From contig JAFRIE010000013.1 in assembly GCA_017432885.1 (NCBI GenBank), forward strand, positions 17,956 to 81,955: 64,000 nt of DNA, given 5' to 3'. The number at the start of each line of letters is the position of its first letter. Positions within the stretch are counted from its first letter, which is position 1. The stretch comes from Erysipelotrichaceae bacterium. Its GTDB lineage: Bacteria > Bacillota_I > Bacilli_A > Erysipelotrichales > Erysipelotrichaceae. Below are positions 17,296 to 24,065 of this stretch, one piece after another. The notes below the pieces were generated by a model that ran no database searches, was not told the DNA's origin, and saw only the letters and a program-made list of their open reading frames with translations. A program made the position numbers and the translations under genes.

Positions 17296-17802
17296 CTATA
17301 CCTGTTTCATGATCTCCTTTCCCGTTTCATATTTATCCTGTTCAGGAATCGTAAAGATGATCCTGATCTCGTGATCCGGATGCTTCCTGCACCAGTCCTT
17401 ACAGGCTCTCAGAGCCGTTTTCCAGGCTTTTTTCAAAGGATAACCGTAGATACCTGCCGAAATCAAAGGAAAGGCGATCGAAGAAATAGAATGCTCTAAA
17501 GCCAGATCCAGACTGCTGATGTAACAGCTGTAAAGAAGTGTTTCCTCGTCGTGGTTTCCATCTTCATAGATGGGTCCTACTGCATGAATGATGTAGGGAC
17601 AAAGCGCAAAGCCCGGCGTGATCACCGCATTTCCCGTCTCGCATCCGCCGATGTCGTCACAGGCTTTCTGCAGTCTTGCAGCACCTGCGGCTCTGAAGAT
17701 GGCGCCGCATACTCCACCTCCCTGTAAAAGACGGGAATTGGCAGCATTGACAACCGCTTGCGCTTCCGTGGCGGTAATACCTGTTTTTCTGATCTCTATC
17801 AT
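17296..17802 (-). CDS. Macro domain protein (O-acetyl-ADP-ribose deacetylase / YmdB-like)
   Basis: VNAANSRLLQGGGVCGAIFRAAG and IAFPLISAGIYGYP motifs. Confidence 0.85.
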   Translation of the reverse strand: MIEIRKTGITATEAQAVVNAANSRLLQGGGVCGAIFRAAGAARLQKACDDIGGCETGNAVITPGFALCPYIIHAVGPIYEDGNHDEETLLYSCYISSLDLALEHSISSIAFPLISAGIYGYPLKKAWKTALRACKDWCRKHPDHEIRIIFTIPEQDKYETGKEIMKQV

Positions 17803-19102: not shown

Positions 19103-19156
19103 GAAAACCCCGGCAACGGGGTTTTCAACATAGAAAAGGATCCTTTCGGATCCTTT
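19103..19156 (-). terminator. Two tandem terminator hairpins after rtcB
   Basis: AAAGGAUCC-GAAA-GGAUCCUUU followed by UCU (overlaps the stop codon), then GAAAACCCCG-UUGC-CGGGGUUUUC. Confidence 0.55.
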
Positions 19157-20360
19157 ATTCATCAGCCTTGAAATTGTAGATCGGTTTCACCGTTTGAATG
19201 ATCTGTGCAGTCGGAGTGATATTCTCGACAATATCTTTCATATCCTTATAGGCCATCGGGCTTTCATCCAGCGTATTACGGTTTACCGTCGTAGAGTAGA
19301 TGCCCTCCATCTGCCTTTCAAACTCTTCTACCGACAAGGAACGGAAGGCTTCGTTCCTTGACATGATCCTTCCGGCACCGTGCGGTGCGGAACAGTTCCA
19401 TTCCGGATTTCCTTTTCCGATACAGATCAGAGATCCGTCTCTCATGTTGATTGGGATCAGGAGTTTCTCCCCTTTCTGTGCGGATACGGAGCCTTTTCTC
19501 AAGATCATATTTTCGGTATCGATGTAGTTGTGTACGGTCGTAAACTGGTCGGTAACAGTCAATCCCATTCCCTCAACGATGATCTGCATCATCGTTTTAC
19601 GGTTGATATCGGCAAATTCCTGCATGATCTTCATGTCGTGGATGTAGTCCTTGAACAGGCTGCCGCTTACATAGGCCATCTCCTTTGGAATGTCCGTCTT
19701 TGCCTCTTTCTTGATATCCTCCAGCATCGCTGAAATTTCTCCGCTTCTGCCCTGTGACTTCAGTTCATCGATCCTTTTCTGAATCTCTTCCTTTGTGACT
19801 CCGTTGATCTGCTGCCAGGCCAGACGCTGATAGATCTCGGCCACTTCCTTTCCCAGATGTCTGGAACCGGAATGGATGACGATGTAGAGAGTTCCTTTCT
19901 CATCTTTATCCACCTCGATGAAATGGTTGCCTCCGCCCAGAGAACCGATGGCTTTCAGTTCCTTTTCAAGGTGTTCCAATCTGCTGATGCATCTTAGATT
20001 AAAGACACGCACTTGGTCGGCATTGACGTGCTTCTTTTTGCGCACATTTATGCCCGAAGGGATCTGTTCATGGATCAGACGATCCAGTTTCTCAAGATCG
20101 ATCTCCTTCTCTTTGATCATGACCGTTTCCATCCCGCAGCCGATATCAACACCGACCATATTCGGTGTAACCGCGCCATGCAAAGTCATGGTCGTTCCGA
20201 TGGTACATCCCGCTCCCGCATGGACGTCCGGCATGATACGGATCCTGGAATCCTTGTATATCTCCATGTCACACAAGGCCTGCAGCTGCTGTAGCGCTGT
20301 TTCTTCTACGTTTGAAGTGTAAACGATCGCTTCGTTGTATTTTCCCTGTATCTTGTACAT
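19155..20360 (-). CDS. rtcB: RtcB family RNA 3'-phosphate/5'-OH ligase
   Basis: MPDVHAGAGCTIG, GGGNHFIE, IHSGSRHLG and SAPHGAGR (the guanylylated His context). 401 aa. Confidence 0.9.
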   Translation of the reverse strand: MYKIQGKYNEAIVYTSNVEETALQQLQALCDMEIYKDSRIRIMPDVHAGAGCTIGTTMTLHGAVTPNMVGVDIGCGMETVMIKEKEIDLEKLDRLIHEQIPSGINVRKKKHVNADQVRVFNLRCISRLEHLEKELKAIGSLGGGNHFIEVDKDEKGTLYIVIHSGSRHLGKEVAEIYQRLAWQQINGVTKEEIQKRIDELKSQGRSGEISAMLEDIKKEAKTDIPKEMAYVSGSLFKDYIHDMKIMQEFADINRKTMMQIIVEGMGLTVTDQFTTVHNYIDTENMILRKGSVSAQKGEKLLIPINMRDGSLICIGKGNPEWNCSAPHGAGRIMSRNEAFRSLSVEEFERQMEGIYSTTVNRNTLDESPMAYKDMKDIVENITPTAQIIQTVKPIYNFKADE

Positions 20361-20405: not shown

Positions 20406-21854
20406 TTAGACGGTGATTCTTTCGTATCTTTCCGTATTCAGTACGGAAAGCATGTATTCATATGGCGTCATGTTGATTCCTTTGACCAGGGATTCGAATA
20501 CGGCTGTCGACTGACCGGAAGCCAGCTGTACCCCTTTACGGTCAAAGGAAGCGTGATAAGTACTGTGACGCGAATTGACGTTCCAGAAGACCACGCTTGG
20601 CATCTCGTAACCGTTATCCTCGAACTGTTTCTTCATCAGGTCGTAGAACAGCCAGTTGCCGCTGACGCATCTGTCGATTTCCATGTCGGTAATGACGACG
20701 ATGGAAGAAGGCATTTCCTCTTTCGGGGTCCGGTATTTGACTGCCGTATACAGCAGGAGCCGGAATGCGGCTTCAAGGTCCGTGTTCATCGCCCATTGGG
20801 CATTCGCAATGTATCGGATCTTCTCGAAAAGACTGTCGCCCTTGATGGTGACCAGTTCCGGCCTTGCGGAGAAGGTCATGAAGGTATTGGCAAAAGGACC
20901 TTTGTTTCTTTCGGCAAAATACATGGCCAGACCGACCGAAGTCGCCATCGGTCTGCCGGACATTGAACCGGAAACATCGGCCATGACCAGAAAGCTGTTT
21001 TCGCCTTCGATGTAATTCGGTAAGGCCTTCCACTGTTCCTCAAGGACCTTGTCCACACCTTCCGACTGATAAAGATATTTTTCAACGATATCGTAAGGAT
21101 AAAGGACGGAAGAATTTATTTTCTCTTCGCCTCTTTCAACCTTGCTTACGAACTCGTCGAAACGTTCTTCATCATGACGCCGGAAAGCTTTGCGGTAGTT
21201 GTTCATGGCTTTGGAAGGAACTTCCGGATAGATAATATCTTCCCAGTTCTTTGCAGACATATCGACTTCAACTACATTCAGATACTTACGCAATACCGCA
21301 AGGGTCTTCCGGTATTCCCGCTCGGACATGCCGAAGCTTTTCGCCAGATATTTGCCTTTTCTGACCGTCTCCCTGTTAGAAGTATTGACGGAAGGAAGCC
21401 ATTTCGCCAGTAAAGATACAGGCTCCATTTTCTTCATACCGGCCAGGTCTTCCTTAAGCTGTTTCTTCAGCAGCGGAACGATGACATCCGCTGCATCGTC
21501 CAGCAGATAGACCAGATCGTCCCATCTTCCGTAATCGGCAACGTATTCCAGATTCTTTCTGAAGATATCGGGATAGTTTTCAGCCAGATACTTCAGCATC
21601 AGTCTGCCGGTACGTCTTTCCCCCAGACCGCCTCTGACATCTCTGGTATAGAAAGCCAGTTTTGTCGCAACAAGCTTATCTTTCACCATGGCTTTTGAGA
21701 ACAGGGCGATGATTTCCTCGTCTTCTCTCTCGCGCATTGCGCCGGAGACGGCAAAAAGATCAACCAGGGCGTCTGACGTGCTGTTTAAAGCCAGAGCGTC
21801 GTTTTCGGTTAGTGTGTAGTTCTGTTCCTTTCTGATGTTATCGAATAAAGTCAT
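20406..21854 (-). CDS. DUF2828-type protein: helical N-terminal half plus C-terminal vWA/MIDAS domain (Ro60-like architecture)
   Basis: Start trimmed to MTLFDNIRKEQ, with AAGGAGG 7 nt upstream. MIDAS motif VMADVSGSMSG and a later VVITDME. N-half has YTRDVRGGLGERR and YGRWDDLVYLL motifs. The family name is from memory and unverified. Confidence 0.65.
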   Translation of the reverse strand: MTLFDNIRKEQNYTLTENDALALNSTSDALVDLFAVSGAMREREDEEIIALFSKAMVKDKLVATKLAFYTRDVRGGLGERRTGRLMLKYLAENYPDIFRKNLEYVADYGRWDDLVYLLDDAADVIVPLLKKQLKEDLAGMKKMEPVSLLAKWLPSVNTSNRETVRKGKYLAKSFGMSEREYRKTLAVLRKYLNVVEVDMSAKNWEDIIYPEVPSKAMNNYRKAFRRHDEERFDEFVSKVERGEEKINSSVLYPYDIVEKYLYQSEGVDKVLEEQWKALPNYIEGENSFLVMADVSGSMSGRPMATSVGLAMYFAERNKGPFANTFMTFSARPELVTIKGDSLFEKIRYIANAQWAMNTDLEAAFRLLLYTAVKYRTPKEEMPSSIVVITDMEIDRCVSGNWLFYDLMKKQFEDNGYEMPSVVFWNVNSRHSTYHASFDRKGVQLASGQSTAVFESLVKGINMTPYEYMLSVLNTERYERITV

Positions 21855-22019
21855 GGTTTTTACCTCCTTATGATTCTTAGACACGGCACTACGGGTGTTG
21901 CGTTTTTCCGGTTTTCTAGATGGTGCAAACAGTTTGTTGCAAGTGCCGTTATACAAGATGCCATATTCGTTCATTTATGAGATGAATGTCACTAAGATTG
22001 CTGCAGGCATCTTTGTTTC

Positions 22020-22122
22020 AAGACGTTGTTATGATCGCGGGATTCGAACCCGCCTGTCCCTGACTGCAAGTCAGGTGCTTACCGCTTAGTCAGATCTCTC
22101 AAAAGATTGCTGTTAACGTCTT
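22020..22122 (-). ncRNA. tRNA-like module (Y-RNA/YrlA-like candidate) in the leader of the vWA-rtcB operon
   Basis: Perfect T arm GCGGG-UUCGAAU-CCCGC (22037-22053). Anticodon-like arm CCUGA-CUUGCAG-UCAGG (22059-22075). D loop AAGCGGUAAG. Only a 4-bp acceptor (GAUC/GAUC) and no CCA. Clamped by an 8-bp helix AAGACGUU/AACGUCUU. Transcript ends are unknown. Confidence 0.5.
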
Positions 22123-22341
22123 TCATTCCAGACACCATAGTTCCTTTACAAGAGGTTTTGCTGTCGGTGTCTGATGTCCCTTGGGACAATTTCATCATAA
22201 CAGGAGTCATATTTATAATAAATTGTCAGTTTCTCAAATTACTTGACCACCTGTTTTATCATTTTTTATGGTTTTTTTACATAGATTTCTTTATTTCTTG
22301 ACCACCTTTTGTGTACCATAAAGGTATATGAAGGCAGAAAC

Positions 22342-23361
22342 ATGGAAGAAAAGATCAAAATATACATACCGGAAAGCGTCAACAGTATCCTATTAAAGGA
22401 CATGGAACTCTTTGAATTCTTCAAAAAGGACGGTTCCTTGAATAAAAACGAGTTCTACAACACTCTGATCGTCAACTACTATGAACAGTACGAAGAAAAC
22501 CAGAGTGCGATCTTTTCTCATATCATCGGCAGCATTTCCGAAAAGTCATCCCTTACGGAAACGGAGGCCAAGGACATCGCCGCCGACATCCTGCAGTACG
22601 TGGATGTCCGAACCTATCAGCTGGACAGACAGAAATACGACGTGGCGATTGCCATGAAACCGACCCGGAAATCCTCCGACGATATCGAATACATCCAGAA
22701 CTGTCTGCTAGGCAATTCCACGCTATCCAATTATTTCCGTAACATGTTCGCATCCTATTCCCTGCTGCCTCAGGACAAACGGGAGACGATCATTTTTAAG
22801 CAGAATTTCGACCTGATCAGGGAAGCTATTGAAGAAGACAGGAAGGTTTATTTCACTACTGTCAAAAACACTGCACCGCACATTATGTCTCCGTATACGA
22901 TCGCCAGTTCCAGAGAGGAGCTTTTCAACTATCTGATCGGTAACTACAAAGACCATCCCTACAGTTTCCGCATTTCCCGGATCCGGCAGGTCAAGATCCT
23001 GAATGAATCCAGGGATATGCCGGAAGGACTCGTCAGAATTTTCGAATGGATGGAAAAGTTCGGTCCGCAGTTCTCCTACGACATCAAGAAACCGAGAACG
23101 CCGATCATCGTCAGACTGACGGAAAACGGCAGACGGCAGTTCCGTTCCATGTATCTGCATCGGCCTTCTCCTTTCAAGATCGAGGAGGATCTCTACTATT
23201 TTGACTGTTCCCGTTCCCAGGCTTTCCAGTACTTCTCCAGACTCGGAAGCAACGCGACCGTACTGAAACCTGAAGACCTGGCCGATGATCTGTACAGGTT
23301 CTATTCCATGGCGGAAAGAAAATACCGGAAACTTGTCAGAGAAGAACCCGGAAATGAATGA
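22342..23361 (+). CDS. WYL-like domain protein with a WCX-like C-terminus and an unrecognised N-terminal region
   Basis: Start trimmed to MEEKIKIYIPE. WYL-type core: KVYFTTVKNTAPHIMSPYTIASSREELFNYLIGNYKDHPYSFRISRIRQVKIL. C-terminal ...FSRLGSNATVLKPEDLADDL resembles the WYL C-terminal extension. No canonical wHTH seen. Confidence 0.5.
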   Translation: MEEKIKIYIPESVNSILLKDMELFEFFKKDGSLNKNEFYNTLIVNYYEQYEENQSAIFSHIIGSISEKSSLTETEAKDIAADILQYVDVRTYQLDRQKYDVAIAMKPTRKSSDDIEYIQNCLLGNSTLSNYFRNMFASYSLLPQDKRETIIFKQNFDLIREAIEEDRKVYFTTVKNTAPHIMSPYTIASSREELFNYLIGNYKDHPYSFRISRIRQVKILNESRDMPEGLVRIFEWMEKFGPQFSYDIKKPRTPIIVRLTENGRRQFRSMYLHRPSPFKIEEDLYYFDCSRSQAFQYFSRLGSNATVLKPEDLADDLYRFYSMAERKYRKLVREEPGNE

Positions 23362-23364
23362 CGG

Positions 23365-23435
23365 ATTCTTTGCTGAGACTTGAACACAGATCTGCAGATT
23401 CAAAGTCTGCTGTCCTTCCTTTAGACGACAAAGAA
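23365..23435 (-). tRNA. tRNA-Gln (anticodon UUG), atypical
   Basis: Acceptor UUCUUUG/CAAAGAA (U1:A72). D arm GUC-UAAAGGAAG-GAC. Anticodon arm GCAGA-CUUUGAA-UCUGC. T arm CUGUG-UUCAAGU-CUCAG with one U*U mismatch. No encoded CCA. The 3' end is 3 nt from the stop of the convergent gene. Confidence 0.6.
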
Positions 23436-23438
23436 ACG

Positions 23439-23522
23439 TGGTGCACAGGGAAGGAATTTGCACCTTCACAGAATTAACGGGAGTTTTACAGACTCTTGAG
23501 CTCACTCGTGCTCAGCCTGTCC
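23439..23522 (-). tRNA. tRNA-Tyr (anticodon GUA), long-variable-arm type with a non-canonical elbow
   Basis: Acceptor GGACAGG/CCUGUGC (G2*G71 mismatch), A73, CCA encoded. D arm GAGC-ACGAGUGA-GCUC (no GG). Anticodon loop CUGUAAA. 12-nt variable region. T stem GAAGG/CCUUC with an 8-nt loop UGCAAAUU. Confidence 0.6.
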
Positions 23523-23523
23523 A

Positions 23524-23600
23524 TGGTCAGTGTGACAGGATTCGAACCTGTGGTCTCATGGTCCCAGGCCATGCGCTTTGCCAAGCTAAGCTACACACTG
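23524..23600 (-). tRNA. tRNA-Pro (anticodon UGG) with C at position 33
   Basis: Acceptor CAGUGUG/CACACUG. D arm GCUU-AGCUUGGCA-AAGC. Anticodon arm CAUGG-CCUGGGA-CCAUG. T arm ACAGG-UUCGAAU-CCUGU. A73 and CCA encoded. Confidence 0.8.
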
Positions 23601-23605
23601 ATGAT

Positions 23606-23680
23606 TGGCGGTCTATACGGGAATTGAACCCGTATCCGGTGATAGACAGTCACCTATCTTAGCCGTTAGACGAATAGACC
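23606..23680 (-). tRNA. tRNA-Asp (anticodon GUC)
   Basis: Acceptor GGUCUAU/AUAGACC. D arm GUCU-AACGGCUA-AGAU. Anticodon arm GGUGA-CUGUCUA-UCACC. T arm ACGGG-UUCAAUU-CCCGU. G73 and CCA encoded. Confidence 0.85.
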
Positions 23681-23682
23681 AC

Positions 23683-23757
23683 TGGTTCCAGATCAGGGAG
23701 TTGAACCCTGTTCCTGCGGCTTATGAGACCGCGACAGATACCGACCTTCCATCTGGT
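23683..23757 (-). tRNA. tRNA with CAU anticodon (Met, initiator or lysidine-Ile; undecided)
   Basis: Acceptor ACCAGAU/AUCUGGA with an A1*A72 mismatch. Weak D stem. Anticodon arm GCGGU-CUCAUAA-GCCGC. T arm CAGGG-UUCAACU-CCCUG. A73 and CCA encoded. Confidence 0.7.
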
Positions 23758-23760
23758 ATA

Positions 23761-23835
23761 TGGTAATGCCACCGGGACTTGAACCCGGATTGCAGGATTG
23801 AAAATCCTGTGACCTGACCTTTCGTCGATGGCATC
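23761..23835 (-). tRNA. tRNA-Glu (anticodon UUC)
   Basis: Acceptor GAUGCCA/UGGCAUU (G1:U72). D arm GAC-GAAAGGUCAG-GUC. Anticodon arm CAGGA-UUUUCAA-UCCUG. T arm CCGGG-UUCAAGU-CCCGG. A73 and CCA encoded. Confidence 0.85.
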
Positions 23836-23836
23836 A

Positions 23837-23911
23837 TGGTAGAAGCTGATGGACTTGAACCAGTCAACTGACGATTATAAGTCGCCTGTTTTTCCTTTAA
23901 ACTAAGCTTCT
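23837..23911 (-). tRNA. tRNA-Ile (anticodon UAU), atypical T stem
   Basis: Acceptor AGAAGCU/AGCUUCU. D arm GUUU-AAAGGAA-AAAC. Anticodon arm GGCGA-CUUAUAA-UCGUC. T loop UUCAAGU with stem GA(C)UGG/CCAUC (bulged C). A73 and CCA encoded. Confidence 0.7.
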
Positions 23912-23913
23912 GC

Positions 23914-23988
23914 TGGGGTATTGTAACGGTACTGCCCCGTTTCTTTCGCGGTCACAACGCGACGTACTGCTTCTATACGAACAACACC
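23914..23988 (-). tRNA. tRNA-His (anticodon GUG) with a non-canonical T loop
   Basis: Encoded G-1 paired to C73. Acceptor GUGUUGU/ACAAUAC. CCA encoded. Anticodon arm UCGCG-UUGUGAC-CGCGA. T stem AACGG/CCGUU is perfect but the loop is GGCAGUA. D loop AGAAGCA lacks GG. Confidence 0.7.
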
Positions 23989-23991
23989 ATA

Positions 23992-24065
23992 TGGCTTCGG
24001 GTGACCGACTCGAACGGTCATCCTATGAGTCAGAGTCATAGATCCTGCCATTAGAAGAACCCGAA
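23992..24065 (-). tRNA. tRNA-Gln (anticodon CUG)
   Basis: Acceptor UUCGGGU/ACCCGAA (U1:A72). Anticodon arm UAUGA-CUCUGAC-UCAUA. T arm GACCG-UUCGAGU-CGGUC. G73 and CCA encoded. D stem about 3 bp. Confidence 0.8.

What the first reader, a model, noticed from the sequence alone, without database searches (positions are those of the whole stretch)
22020..22122. Degenerate tRNA-like module embedded in the leader of the vWA-rtcB operon (Y-RNA-like candidate)
Minus-strand RNA reads GAUC-UG-ACUAAGCGGUAAGCA-CCUGA-CUUGCAG-UCAGG-GACAG-GCGGG-UUCGAAU-CCCGC-GAUC.

Parts that are retained:
- a perfect T arm with a canonical T loop
- a perfect 5-bp anticodon-like arm (the loop would read UGC)
- a D loop, AAGCGGUAAG, that keeps the GG pair

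So the elbow-forming nucleotides are preserved.

Parts that are degraded:
- the acceptor is only 4 bp
- the D stem is about 2 bp
- there is no CCA

The module is clamped by an 8-bp helix (22115-22122 pairing with 22020-22027). It lies about 165 nt upstream of the RBS of the Ro-like vWA gene.

Bacterial YrlA Y RNAs are known to mimic tRNA. The topology here (closed anticodon arm, open acceptor) may differ from YrlA, so this could be a distinct class. Alternatively it could be an RNase P/Z processing signal.
Basis: partly seen in the sequence, partly recalled or inferred. Interest (0 to 1): 0.75.

Follow-up and report, generated by a model that had tools for sequence, protein, structure and literature searches.

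The report
tRNA-shaped module of a Ro-partner RNA
The element is a conserved tRNA-shaped domain inside one of four repeated hairpins in the leader RNA of a Ro60-like protein/RtcB ligase operon, and the same hairpin motif sits next to this protein family across bacteria and phages, so it looks like a new relative of the bacterial Y RNAs.

Summary
On the minus strand, 22099-22028 is a tRNA-like fold (ARAGORN tRNA-Ala(UGC); Rfam tRNA 32.8 bits against a 29-bit cut-off), clamped by the 8-bp helix 22122-22115/22027-22020.

It is neither a decoding tRNA nor a decayed remnant. In 14 distinct orthologous leaders the clamp, anticodon-like stem and T arm are kept with compensatory changes. The "anticodon" and U33 are not kept, and two relatives carry a tetraloop instead.

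The element is hairpin H2 of four tandem modules (H1-H4). Each is a 7-8 bp basal helix followed by ACAGCAA. They lie in a ~330-nt leader upstream of a DUF2828/vWA protein whose AlphaFold model matches only Ro60/TROVE structures over its full length.

ACAGCAA is about 30-fold enriched on the sense strand upstream of DUF2828 genes (63 of 76 loci). I also read the helix–ACAGCAA motif next to homologues in Listeria, Bacillus and mycobacterial phages. In Lachnospiraceae it occurs circularly permuted inside complete tRNA-like genes.

Best reading: a Y-RNA analogue, with helix–ACAGCAA as the inferred binding site for the Ro-like protein and the tRNA/anticodon-arm mimic as the effector module. It fails Rfam's YrlA and Y_RNA models, so I call it a new variant. 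Binding and function are inferred, not shown.

The parts
22194..22202 (-). Probable extended -10 promoter element TGtTATGAT of the leader. The inferred transcription start is about 22187-22190.
   Evidence: Sequence reading. It is conserved in the alignment of relatives. The consensus scan did not call it, so this is an inference.
22175..22188 (-). H0: 5'-terminal hairpin UGUCCC-AA-GGGACA.
   Evidence: MFE fold. It is kept with different stems in relatives, for example GUCA/UGAC in L001 and GUC/GAC in L124.
22129..22173 (-). H1 module: helix CAGACACC (22173-22166) / GGUGUCUG (22136-22129), with ACAGCAA at 22164-22158. The distal loop CUUGUAA looks like an anticodon loop.
22019..22122 (-). H2 module, the finding itself: basal helix AAGACGUU (22122-22115) / AACGUCUU (22027-22020) followed by G22019, with ACAGCAA at 22113-22107 and the tRNA-like domain as the distal part.
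   Evidence: The basal helix is 99% paired in 14 sequences, with two compensatory pairs.
22028..22099 (-). tRNA-like domain: a 4-bp acceptor-like helix, a D-like arm with GG, the anticodon-like arm 22075-22059 (loop CUUGCAG), a 5-nt variable region and the canonical T arm 22053-22037.
   Evidence: ARAGORN, Rfam tRNA 32.8 bits and covariation.
22093..22108 (-). Alternative small hairpin AUCU-UUUGAG-AGAU directly after ACAGCAA. It is mutually exclusive with the acceptor-like pairing GAUC/GAUC.
   Evidence: It appears in the MFE fold. It is present in about half of the relatives, and L133 shows a compensatory AUCC/GGAU (sequences). Its meaning is unexplained.
21954..22013 (-). H3 module: helix AAGAUGCC (22013-22006) / GGCAUCUU (21962-21955) followed by G, with GCAGCAA at 22004-21998. 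The distal hairpin UUCAU-CUCAUAA-AUGAA (21986-21970) mimics an anticodon stem-loop.
   Evidence: L005 and L124 show a compensatory AAGAUGCU/AGCAUCUU.
21882..21949 (-). H4 module: helix ACGGCAC (21949-21943) / GUGCCGU (21889-21883) followed by G, with the variant motif GCAACAA at 21940-21934. It ends 13 nt before the RBS.
   Evidence: All 16 relatives keep the pairing, in the states ACGGCAC/GUGCCGU, ACGGCGC/GCGCCGU and ACGACAC/GUGUCGU plus G-U variants.
21863..21869 (-). Ribosome-binding site AAGGAGG of the DUF2828 gene.
20406..21854 (-). DUF2828 + DUF7788/vWA protein (482 aa) with a Ro60-like fold. It is the inferred protein partner of the RNA.
   Evidence: Pfam. AlphaFold2 model with pLDDT 88.3. 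The top five Foldseek PDB matches are all Ro60/TROVE over the full length.
19155..20360 (-). RtcB RNA ligase (401 aa), directly downstream in the same operon.
   Evidence: Pfam PF01139, E=1.4e-64.
22342..23361 (+). Divergently transcribed WYL-domain protein, the probable regulator of the operon.
   Evidence: Pfam WYL, E=6e-6. It is syntenic in L001-L006 and in the close relatives.

Best explanation
The element is the tRNA-mimic module of a Y-RNA-like RNA that partners the Ro60-like DUF2828/vWA protein encoded just downstream.

The operon leader runs from about 22190 to 21870 on the minus strand. It folds into a 5' hairpin and four tandem modules. Each module is a 7-8 bp basal helix whose 5' strand is followed by ACAGCAA and whose 3' strand is followed by G.

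I infer that this helix–ACAGCAA unit is the docking site for the Ro-like protein, playing the role that the conserved stem plays for Ro60 in Y RNAs. The distal parts of the modules present tRNA-shaped surfaces. H2 carries a near-complete L-shaped tRNA body with an intact D-loop/T-loop elbow. H1 and H3 carry anticodon-stem-loop look-alikes.

These mimics would bring a tRNA-recognising partner to the RNP. The candidates are the co-encoded RtcB ligase, or an anticodon nuclease that is decoyed or sensed. Because the modules lie in the 5' leader, and H4 ends 13 nt before the RBS, binding may also feed back on translation of the operon.

Shown: the structure, its conservation and covariation, co-localisation with the protein family, and the Ro60-like fold. 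Inferred: protein binding, release as a discrete RNA, and the tRNA-related function.
For: 1. tRNA-like fold.

2. Conservation in 14 distinct orthologous leaders: 90.3% of cells paired against 32-46% for slid controls, and 10 pairs with changes on both sides. The basal helix is 99% paired, the T stem 96% and the anticodon-like stem 87%.

3. Not a decoder: the 'anticodons' read UGC, UUU, UCG, AAA, CAA, UAU, UGA, UGU, UCU and UCC. U33 is lost in several relatives, and L001/L081 carry a 4-nt loop.

4. Four repeated modules: seen in the MAFFT alignment of leaders and in the MFE fold. H4 is paired in 16 of 16 relatives through three covarying states.

5. ACAGCAA occurs at 3.52/kb on the sense strand within 400 nt upstream of DUF2828 genes (63 of 76 loci). 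It occurs at 0.03/kb on the antisense strand and 0.117/kb elsewhere. T-loop motifs occur at 2.57/kb against 0.054/kb.

6. The motif is kept when RtcB and WYL are absent and when other neighbours are unrelated, so it tracks DUF2828 itself.

7. The same helix–ACAGCAA unit occurs circularly permuted inside 67 complete tRNA-like genes just upstream of DUF2828, all on the gene strand. Its hairpin is 98.6% paired in a sequence-only alignment, with compensatory changes.

8. The motif also lies next to homologues in a Listeria, a Bacillus and a mycobacterial phage, and in Sutterella, Bacteroidales and Syntrophorhabdus loci.

9. The protein model (pLDDT 88.3) matches Ro60/TROVE structures over its full length (E 7e-8 to 2e-6, TM about 0.52-0.55). 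Every other match covers only a vWA domain. Phage homologues are annotated 'Ro-like RNA binding protein'.

10. Precedent: Y RNAs with tRNA-like domains are encoded on the same strand next to Ro60 in rtcB operons (Chen 2014, PMC4201824; Hughes 2020, PMC7790460).
Against: - There is no expression, processing or binding data, and all sequences come from metagenome-assembled genomes or phage records.
- No terminator separates the leader from the coding region, so in this locus the RNA may exist only as a 5' UTR.
- Rfam's YrlA and Y_RNA models do not match, and the Ro-binding motifs GNCGAAN0-1G and GGUCCGA are absent.
- The Ro60 similarity is fold-level only. There is no Pfam TROVE hit at E<=0.01 and no PDB hit by sequence.
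- The acceptor-like helix is short and competes with an alternative small hairpin.
- The 14 sequences are related, so the shuffle controls overstate significance. The slid-partner control is the fairer one.
- RtcB is adjacent in only about a third of loci, so the link to ligation is not general.
Confidence: 0.65

Rival explanations
1. It is a purely cis-acting regulatory leader. The hairpins would be operators for autoregulation by the DUF2828 protein, or sensors read by the WYL regulator or by damaged or uncharged tRNA. They would control translation or stability of the DUF2828-rtcB mRNA, with no role as a separate RNP scaffold.
For: - The modules lie between the promoter and the RBS with no terminator on the sense strand, and H4 ends 13 nt before the RBS.
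- Mutually exclusive pairings exist: AUCU/AGAU against GAUC/GAUC.
- A WYL-domain regulator is divergently encoded.
Against: - The same motif lies 3' of the gene in mycobacteriophage Samty and between rtcB and DUF2828 in L012, L018, L019 and L029.
- It is built into free-standing tRNA-like genes with 7-bp acceptor stems in tandem. That arrangement fits stable, processed RNAs better than UTR operators.
- WYL is absent from most loci that have the motif.
- This rival is not exclusive of the best explanation.
Confidence: 0.2
2. It is an RNase P / RNase Z processing signal. The tRNA-like fold would only direct endonucleolytic maturation of the operon transcript, as tRNA-like punctuation does elsewhere.
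For: - The T arm and elbow nucleotides are intact.
- M. smegmatis YrlA is cut by RNase P (PMC4201824).
- The permuted relatives in Lachnospiraceae have full 7-bp acceptor stems and look processable.
Against: - In the window clade the acceptor-like helix is only 3-5 bp, it varies, and it is enclosed by the basal helix. Chen 2014 attribute RNase P cleavage to a 7-bp acceptor stem.
- This reading does not explain the three other ACAGCAA modules or the motif's linkage to DUF2828.
Confidence: 0.08
3. It is a functional, if unusual, tRNA-Ala(UGC) gene belonging to the nearby tRNA array.
For: ARAGORN and Rfam both call it a tRNA. A 7-tRNA array lies 1.3 kb upstream on the same strand.
Against: - The acceptor has two A-A mismatches, there is no G3:U70, and the D stem has only 2 Watson-Crick pairs.
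- Orthologous copies carry ten different 'anticodons', lose U33, or have a tetraloop.
- The element is enclosed in a conserved 8-bp helix inside a leader.
Confidence: 0.02
4. It is a decayed tRNA gene remnant with no function.
For: The tRNA score is low and the acceptor and D stems are degraded.
Against: - Stems are maintained by compensatory substitutions, and the GGUUCGAAUCC T loop is invariant, in 14 lineages whose neighbouring protein is only 65-89% identical.
- The element always occupies the same position inside module H2.
Confidence: 0.02

Closest known systems
YrlA (Rfam RF02553), the bacterial Y RNA with a tRNA-like domain encoded in rsr-yrlBA-rtcBA operons
   Same: - It is encoded next to, and on the same strand as, a Ro60-fold protein, here in an operon with rtcB.
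- It is modular: a conserved stem near the RNA ends plus a domain that mimics the tRNA D-loop/T-loop elbow with a canonical T arm.
- It has no decoding function.
   Different: - Arm order here is D, closed anticodon arm, T. YrlA has T, closed acceptor stem-loop, D.
- The conserved motif is helix + ACAGCAA, not GNCGAAN0-1G.
- The protein partner is DUF2828, not a Pfam-TROVE Rsr.
- There are four tandem motif copies in an mRNA leader.
- The Rfam model gives no hit even at E<=10.
Deinococcus radiodurans Yrn1 (Y RNA)
   Same: As described by Chen et al. 2014, the stem-loop between the D-like and T arms occupies the anticodon-arm position and the RNA ends form the Ro-binding stem. This is the same topology as the window element.
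   Different: - Yrn1 has only partial D features and a 6-nt 'anticodon loop'.
- It binds Rsr through a GGUCCGA-like bulged helix and tethers PNPase.
- No sequence or model similarity was found here.
Canonical tRNA (Rfam RF00005)
   Same: It has a cloverleaf-like order of arms, a 5-bp anticodon-like stem with a 7-nt loop, a 5-nt variable region, a perfect T arm and G18G19. It scores 3.8 bits above the gathering cut-off.
   Different: The acceptor is degenerate. The triplet and U33 are not conserved among orthologues. No CCA follows. The element is enclosed in a longer helix within a leader.
The tRNA-like RNA of RtcB/RNA-repair systems mentioned by Burroughs & Aravind, NAR 2016 (recalled from the abstract only; the paper is not held)
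   Same: It is a non-coding tRNA-like molecule proposed as a cofactor of a scaffold protein in RNA-repair operons.
   Different: As I recall it, that RNA was linked to SPFH/Band-7 modules and Y RNAs to Rot/TROVE. No SPFH gene was seen in the loci examined. Whether DUF2828-linked RNAs were covered could not be checked.

Membership tests
tRNA (RF00005) | Covariance-model score at or above the gathering cut-off | tested here: met
   32.8 bits against 29. ARAGORN also calls it.
tRNA (RF00005) | 7-bp acceptor stem with free ends able to carry CCA | tested here: not met
   Two A-A mismatches and one G-U. The helix is 3-5 bp in relatives. No CCA follows. The ends continue into the 8-bp basal helix.
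tRNA (RF00005) | Anticodon and U33 conserved among orthologues (decoding function) | tested here: not met
   Ten different triplets occur, U33 is replaced by A or G in several copies, and L001/L081 have a tetraloop.
tRNA (RF00005) | T arm with a canonical T loop and D-loop GG (the elbow) | tested here: met
   GGUUCGAAUCC is invariant in 14 of 14 sequences, and a G of the D-loop GG is an invariant column.
YrlA (RF02553) | Match to the Rfam covariance model (gathering score 69 bits) | tested here: not met
   No hit on the element at E<=10 in 3.5-kb and 421-nt searches. The only YrlA hit (18 bits) spans two adjacent ordinary tRNAs.
YrlA (RF02553) | Order T arm, closed acceptor stem-loop, D arm | tested here: not met
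   The order here is D, closed anticodon arm, T. A YrlA-like order was read by eye inside one ACAGCUA hairpin of Bacillus phage PJN02.
YrlA (RF02553) | GNCGAAN0-1G motif near the 5' end (the proposed Rsr contact) | tested here: not met
   There is no GNCGAA or GGUCCGA anywhere in the 336-nt leader.
YrlA (RF02553) | Encoded within 4 kb of, and on the same strand as, a Ro60 orthologue | tested here: met
   The element lies 166 nt upstream of the start codon (21854) of the Ro60-fold DUF2828 gene, on the same strand.
Y RNA (functional class) | Bound by the Ro60-family protein in vivo | not testable with these tools
   This needs RIP, CLIP or EMSA. Here there is only co-occurrence.
Ro60/TROVE protein family (for the neighbouring gene) | Sequence match to Pfam TROVE or to Ro60 PDB chains | tested here: not met
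   Pfam gives only DUF2828, DUF7788 and a weak VWA_2 hit at E<=0.01. A profile search of PDB sequences finds no Ro60.
Ro60/TROVE protein family (for the neighbouring gene) | Helical-repeat TROVE-type N-terminal part plus a C-terminal vWA domain, matching Ro60 structures over the full length | tested here: met
   The top five Foldseek hits are 9kop, 9nep, 9nfa, 2i91 and 9l5y. E ranges from 6.7e-8 to 2e-6, 515-563 columns are aligned, and TM is about 0.52-0.55. The model has pLDDT 88.3.

The most novel reading that the evidence does not exclude
DUF2828 proteins and helix–ACAGCAA RNAs form a widespread, undescribed class of Ro-like ribonucleoproteins in bacteria and phages. Their RNAs display arrays of tRNA and anticodon-stem-loop mimics with conserved flanks (GA|CU-NNN-AA|UC) and a hypervariable 'anticodon'. 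These mimics would serve as decoys, baits or sensors for anticodon nucleases in phage-host conflict, working with RtcB and phage tRNA arrays. The same protein-binding unit would have been recombined with tRNA bodies in at least three circularly permuted layouts.
Probability: 0.3. Interest if true: 0.85.

Novelty: new variant of a known kind. Interest (0 to 1): 0.7.

Why it matters
Bacterial Y RNAs with tRNA-like domains are known only for canonical Ro60 (Rsr). What their tRNA mimic does is still open.

This locus points to a second, sequence-unrelated Ro-fold family, DUF2828. It has homologues in 708 phage records, some annotated 'Ro-like RNA binding protein'. I found no RNA partner described for it in the literature I could search.

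The family appears to come with its own RNA partner:
- The candidate protein-binding unit, helix + ACAGCAA, is simple enough to mutate.
- The tRNA or anticodon-arm mimics are modular and appear in permuted layouts.
- The genes often neighbour RtcB and tRNA arrays.

That gives an experimentally tractable handle on two questions: why Ro-like proteins carry tRNA mimics, and how phages and bacteria deal with tRNA damage. It also explains a class of sub-threshold or 'intron-containing' tRNA calls in Firmicutes genomes.

Tried and rejected
- Rfam YrlA, Y_RNA and all 4227 families: run on the window and, with lax filters, on the leader. Only the tRNA model matches.
- ARAGORN on 80 related loci: it misses nearly all the tRNA-like elements, so it was not usable for a census.
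- My first helix finder (6-9 bp partner within 260 nt of RCAGCRA): it gave as many hits elsewhere in the window as at the locus. I dropped it as too permissive and replaced it with enrichment counts and alignment-based tests.
- Profile search of PDB sequences for the protein: no Ro60 hit. The fold search was needed.
- Metagenome scan for close relatives: only one was found. Closer leaders came from exact-protein look-ups.
- Literature: Burroughs & Aravind 2016 and Sim et al. 2020 are not held. The supplements of Chen 2014 are not held. Searches for DUF2828, Ro-like and YrlA found no description of this RNA.
- Conserved protein neighbour other than DUF2828 (SPFH/Band-7, for example): none was found in eight Lachnospiraceae loci.
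- Attenuator in the leader: no sense-strand terminator was found.
- Covariance model R1 of the permuted tRNA-like genes: it finds none in the window. The window clade has only the 'insert inside hairpin' layout.
Full report
**1. The observation**

- ARAGORN calls 22099-22028 a tRNA-Ala with anticodon UGC.
- Rfam's tRNA model scores it 32.8 bits against a gathering score of 29. No other Rfam family matches the leader, even at E<=10 on a 421-nt slice.
- The Rfam alignment shows a perfect T arm (GCGGG/UUCGAAU/CCCGC) and a perfect 5-bp anticodon-like stem with loop CUUGCAG. It also shows U8, A14 and G18G19.
- The D stem has only two Watson-Crick pairs. The acceptor (AGAGAUC/GAUCAUA) has two A-A mismatches and one G-U. 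No CCA follows.
- The 8-bp clamp AAGACGUU/AACGUCUU (22122-22115 with 22027-22020) is present and forms in the minimum-free-energy fold of the whole leader.

**2. The surroundings**

The following are on the same (minus) strand, downstream of the element:
- 20406-21854 encodes a 482-aa protein with Pfam DUF2828 and DUF7788/vWA. It is preceded by AAGGAGG.
- 19155-20360 encodes RtcB.

A WYL-domain protein is transcribed divergently from 22342. Seven tRNA genes lie at 23363-24065.

The protein is 100% identical to one from an Erysipelotrichaceae metagenome-assembled genome. Its family is large: 7967 of the 8000 scored candidates reach E<=1e-10.

**3. The protein is Ro60-like by fold**

An AlphaFold2 model (pLDDT 88.3, pTM 0.88) was searched against the PDB.
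- The top five matches are all Ro60/TROVE over the full length: a TROVE domain crystal structure, Ro60 with misfolded pre-5S rRNA, Xenopus Ro60 and a Thermus phage Ro60 dimer.
- For these, E runs from 6.7e-8 to 2e-6, TM is about 0.52-0.55, and 515-563 columns are aligned.
- Every other match covers only a vWA domain.
- Sequence methods do not see the relationship.

**4. The element is conserved and covaries**

I fetched 80 genomic loci with DUF2828 homologues, 43 metagenomic loci and 14 loci for close relatives.

The leaders of the closest clade (protein identity 65-89%) align along their whole length. Fourteen distinct versions of the clamp-plus-tRNA-like unit were aligned by sequence alone (A2).
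- RNAalifold recovers the clamp, the anticodon-like stem and the T stem, with 8 pairs changed on both sides.
- For my full structure, 90.3% of cells are paired against 32-46% when partners are slid by 1-3 columns. Ten pairs show double changes. The covariation score is 0.262 against 0.04-0.09.
- By helix: clamp 99% paired, T stem 96%, anticodon-like stem 87%, D stem 67%. The acceptor-like helix is short (3-5 bp) and differs in sequence between lineages.
- GGUUCGAAUCC is invariant.

The 'anticodon' is not conserved: UGC, UUU, UCG, AAA, CAA, UAU, UGA, UGU, UCU and UCC all occur. Position 33 is often not U, and L001 and L081 have a tetraloop-capped 6-bp stem instead.

So this is a selected structure, not a decoding tRNA and not a decaying pseudogene.

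**5. It is one of four repeated modules**

The leader alignment and the fold show the following, in order:
- a 5' hairpin (22188-22175), a few nucleotides after a conserved TGtTATGAT extended -10;
- H1 (22173-22129);
- H2 (22122-22019), which is the finding;
- H3 (22013-21954);
- H4 (21949-21882);
- the RBS.

Each module has a 7-8 bp basal helix. Its 5' strand is followed, after 0-2 nt, by ACAGCAA (GCAGCAA in H3, GCAACAA in H4). Its 3' strand is followed by G.

The helices covary among relatives:
- H2: U-A changes to C-G in L004 and L133.
- H3: C-G changes to U-A in L005 and L124.
- H4 is paired in 16 of 16 relatives as ACGGCAC/GUGCCGU, ACGGCGC/GCGCCGU or ACGACAC/GUGUCGU, or with G-U.

Relatives have three to six modules.

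**6. The motif tracks the protein family, not the operon**

Within 400 nt upstream of DUF2828 genes, on the sense strand:
- ACAGCAA occurs at 3.52 per kb (63 of 76 loci), against 0.03 per kb antisense and 0.117 per kb in the rest of the loci.
- The T-loop motif GGUUCRANUCC occurs at 2.57 per kb (55 of 76 loci), against 0.054 per kb, even though the remainder contains real tRNAs.

RtcB is adjacent in only about a third of the loci. WYL occurs only in the window clade and a few others. Other neighbours are unrelated.

By reading the sequences, the helix–ACAGCAA unit is also present in:
- Sutterella, Bacteroidales, Syntrophorhabdus and Christensenellaceae loci;
- the regions next to homologues in Listeria phage LP-048 (three copies upstream, with an RtcB-like ligase 1.3 kb downstream), Bacillus phage PJN02 and mycobacteriophage Samty (two copies just 3' of the gene).

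It is absent from FelixO1, where the gene sits directly before the tRNA array. Homologues occur in 708 phage records, some annotated 'Ro-like RNA binding protein'.

**7. Permuted layouts**

In Lachnospiraceae and other Clostridia, Rfam's tRNA model finds 100-131-nt 'tRNAs' just upstream of DUF2828.
- They have a 7-bp acceptor, a canonical D arm and a T arm.
- 40-58 nt are inserted in place of the anticodon stem-loop.
- The insert reads AAAAA-[GAAUCAUG-loop-GUGAUUC]-UA-ACAGCAA-UCC.

This is the same helix and motif as in the window. The helix is closed at its outer end instead of its inner end, so the unit is circularly permuted.

In a sequence-only alignment of twelve such genes, the inserted hairpin is 98.6% paired. 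Three of its six pairs, plus the extension pair at columns 46/71, change on both sides. One C-G pair and one U-G pair are invariant.

A covariance model built from them finds 67 copies at 46 bits or more. All are on the gene strand and immediately upstream of DUF2828, with one to four in tandem. None is in the window.

Other hairpins in these leaders have the window's layout, with a T arm or a tRNA-like body inside. One hairpin in Bacillus phage PJN02 appears to enclose a T arm, a closed stem and a D arm in the YrlA order. I read that by eye only.

**8. Anticodon-arm mimics**

The distal hairpin after ACAGCAA is often a 5-bp stem with a 7-nt loop of the form CU-NNN-AA. The closing pairs are conserved (GA|...|UC) and the middle triplet is highly variable.

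Hairpins with this Y32-U33-R37 signature, a count that also includes T arms (about 38 of the 67 near ACAGCAA), occur at 2.67 per kb in sense-strand upstream regions. They occur at 0.32 per kb in the coding region and 0.09 per kb in shuffles.

In the window:
- H2 has CCUGA-CUUGCAG-UCAGG.
- H3 has UUCAU-CUCAUAA-AUGAA.
- H1 has loop CUUGUAA on a weaker stem.

**9. Interpretation**

Known Y RNAs are encoded beside Ro60 on the same strand. They bind Ro60 through a conserved stem and carry a second module for an effector.

Bacterial YrlA and D. radiodurans Yrn1 both carry tRNA-like modules, in opposite orientations. In Yrn1 the stem-loop between the D-like and T arms occupies the anticodon-arm position, as it does here (PMC4201824). 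In Salmonella the Y RNAs sit in the rsr-yrlBA-rtcBA operon (PMC7790460).

By analogy and by co-occurrence, I infer that helix–ACAGCAA is the docking site of the Ro-fold DUF2828 protein. I also infer that the tRNA-shaped and anticodon-arm-shaped parts engage tRNA-recognising partners. The candidates are RtcB or anticodon nucleases. Hughes et al. raised the decoy idea for YrlA.

In this locus the RNA is also the operon's 5' leader, so an autoregulatory role is plausible and not exclusive. None of this has been tested biochemically.

**10. Comparison and novelty**

The element fails the YrlA tests that could be run: the model score, the arm order and the GNCGAAN0-1G motif. It passes the tRNA score cut-off but fails tRNA's functional features.

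The papers I could search describe no RNA partner for DUF2828 or 'Ro-like' phage proteins. Burroughs & Aravind 2016, whose abstract as I recall it mentions Y RNAs with Rot/TROVE modules and a novel tRNA-like RNA with SPFH modules, could not be read.

I therefore rate it a new variant of a known kind. Prior description somewhere I could not search remains possible.

**11. Caveats**

- All relatives are metagenome-assembled genomes, metagenomic contigs or phage records.
- The 14-sequence and 12-sequence alignments are small and the sequences are related.
- E-values from model R1 are rough.
- The promoter, the transcription start and the operator are read from sequence only.
- The short acceptor-like helix competes with a small hairpin, AUCU-N4-6-AGAU, that follows ACAGCAA in about half of the relatives and covaries in L133. 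I cannot say which of the two forms.

Noticed in passing
window 23363-24065 (-): Seven tRNA genes (Gln, Pro, Asp, Met, Glu, Ile-UAU, Gln) lie just beyond the WYL gene. Two of them (Met 23683-23757, Gln 23992-24065) do not reach Rfam's tRNA cut-off. Similar arrays flank DUF2828 genes in L002, L003, L040, L044, L059/L060 and in phages FelixO1 and PJN02. They may be a linked supply of spare tRNAs.
   Followed up: partly
window 22297-22306 and 22242-22251 (-): GGTGGTCAAG is a direct repeat, found only twice in the window, with 55-nt spacing between the divergent genes. Its complement TTGACC is the -35 of the predicted WYL-gene promoter. GTGGTCA-like pairs with 54-55-nt spacing recur in L001, L131 and L137. 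This is probably the operator of the WYL regulator.
   Followed up: partly
L010-L105, e.g. L011:3262-3867, L031:3449-3932: Tandem sets of one to four tRNA-like genes of 97-131 nt. Each has a perfect 7-bp acceptor, D arm and T arm, and a long insert carrying ACAGCAA in place of the anticodon stem-loop. There are 67 copies, all immediately upstream of DUF2828. Standard tools either miss them or report them as tRNAs with large insertions.
   Followed up: yes
L138 about 1600-1730 (Bacillus phage vB_BsuS_PJN02): One AAGACAC...ACAGCUA...GUGUCUUG hairpin encloses a T arm, then a closed stem, then a D-like arm. That is the YrlA order, and it lies in the middle of the phage tRNA array. I read this by eye only, and Rfam's YrlA model does not reach its threshold.
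   Followed up: partly
window 22093-22108 (-): The small hairpin AUCU-UUUGAG-AGAU directly after ACAGCAA overlaps the 5' strand of the acceptor-like helix. It could be a structural switch or a coincidence of shared complementarity.
   Followed up: partly
window about 21900-21915 (-), inside H4: A loop sequence AACGCAA is conserved in the distal part of H4 in several relatives (window, L124, L126, L128). Its meaning is unknown.
   Followed up: no
window 17296-17802 (-): A Macro-domain protein lies three genes downstream of rtcB, beyond the AzlC gene and a short ORF. Macro domains process ADP-ribose-1''-phosphate, a by-product of 2'-phosphotransferase tRNA splicing. A link to the repair operon is only a thought.
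   Followed up: no
L141 5343-6497 (Listeria phage LP-048); mycobacteriophage LeBron (PMC13148394): Phage DUF2828 homologues sit near RNA-repair genes: an RtcB-like ligase in LP-048, and an RNA ligase and polynucleotide kinase in LeBron. LeBron gp53, the 'Ro-like RNA-binding protein', was toxic when overexpressed in M. smegmatis.
   Followed up: partly
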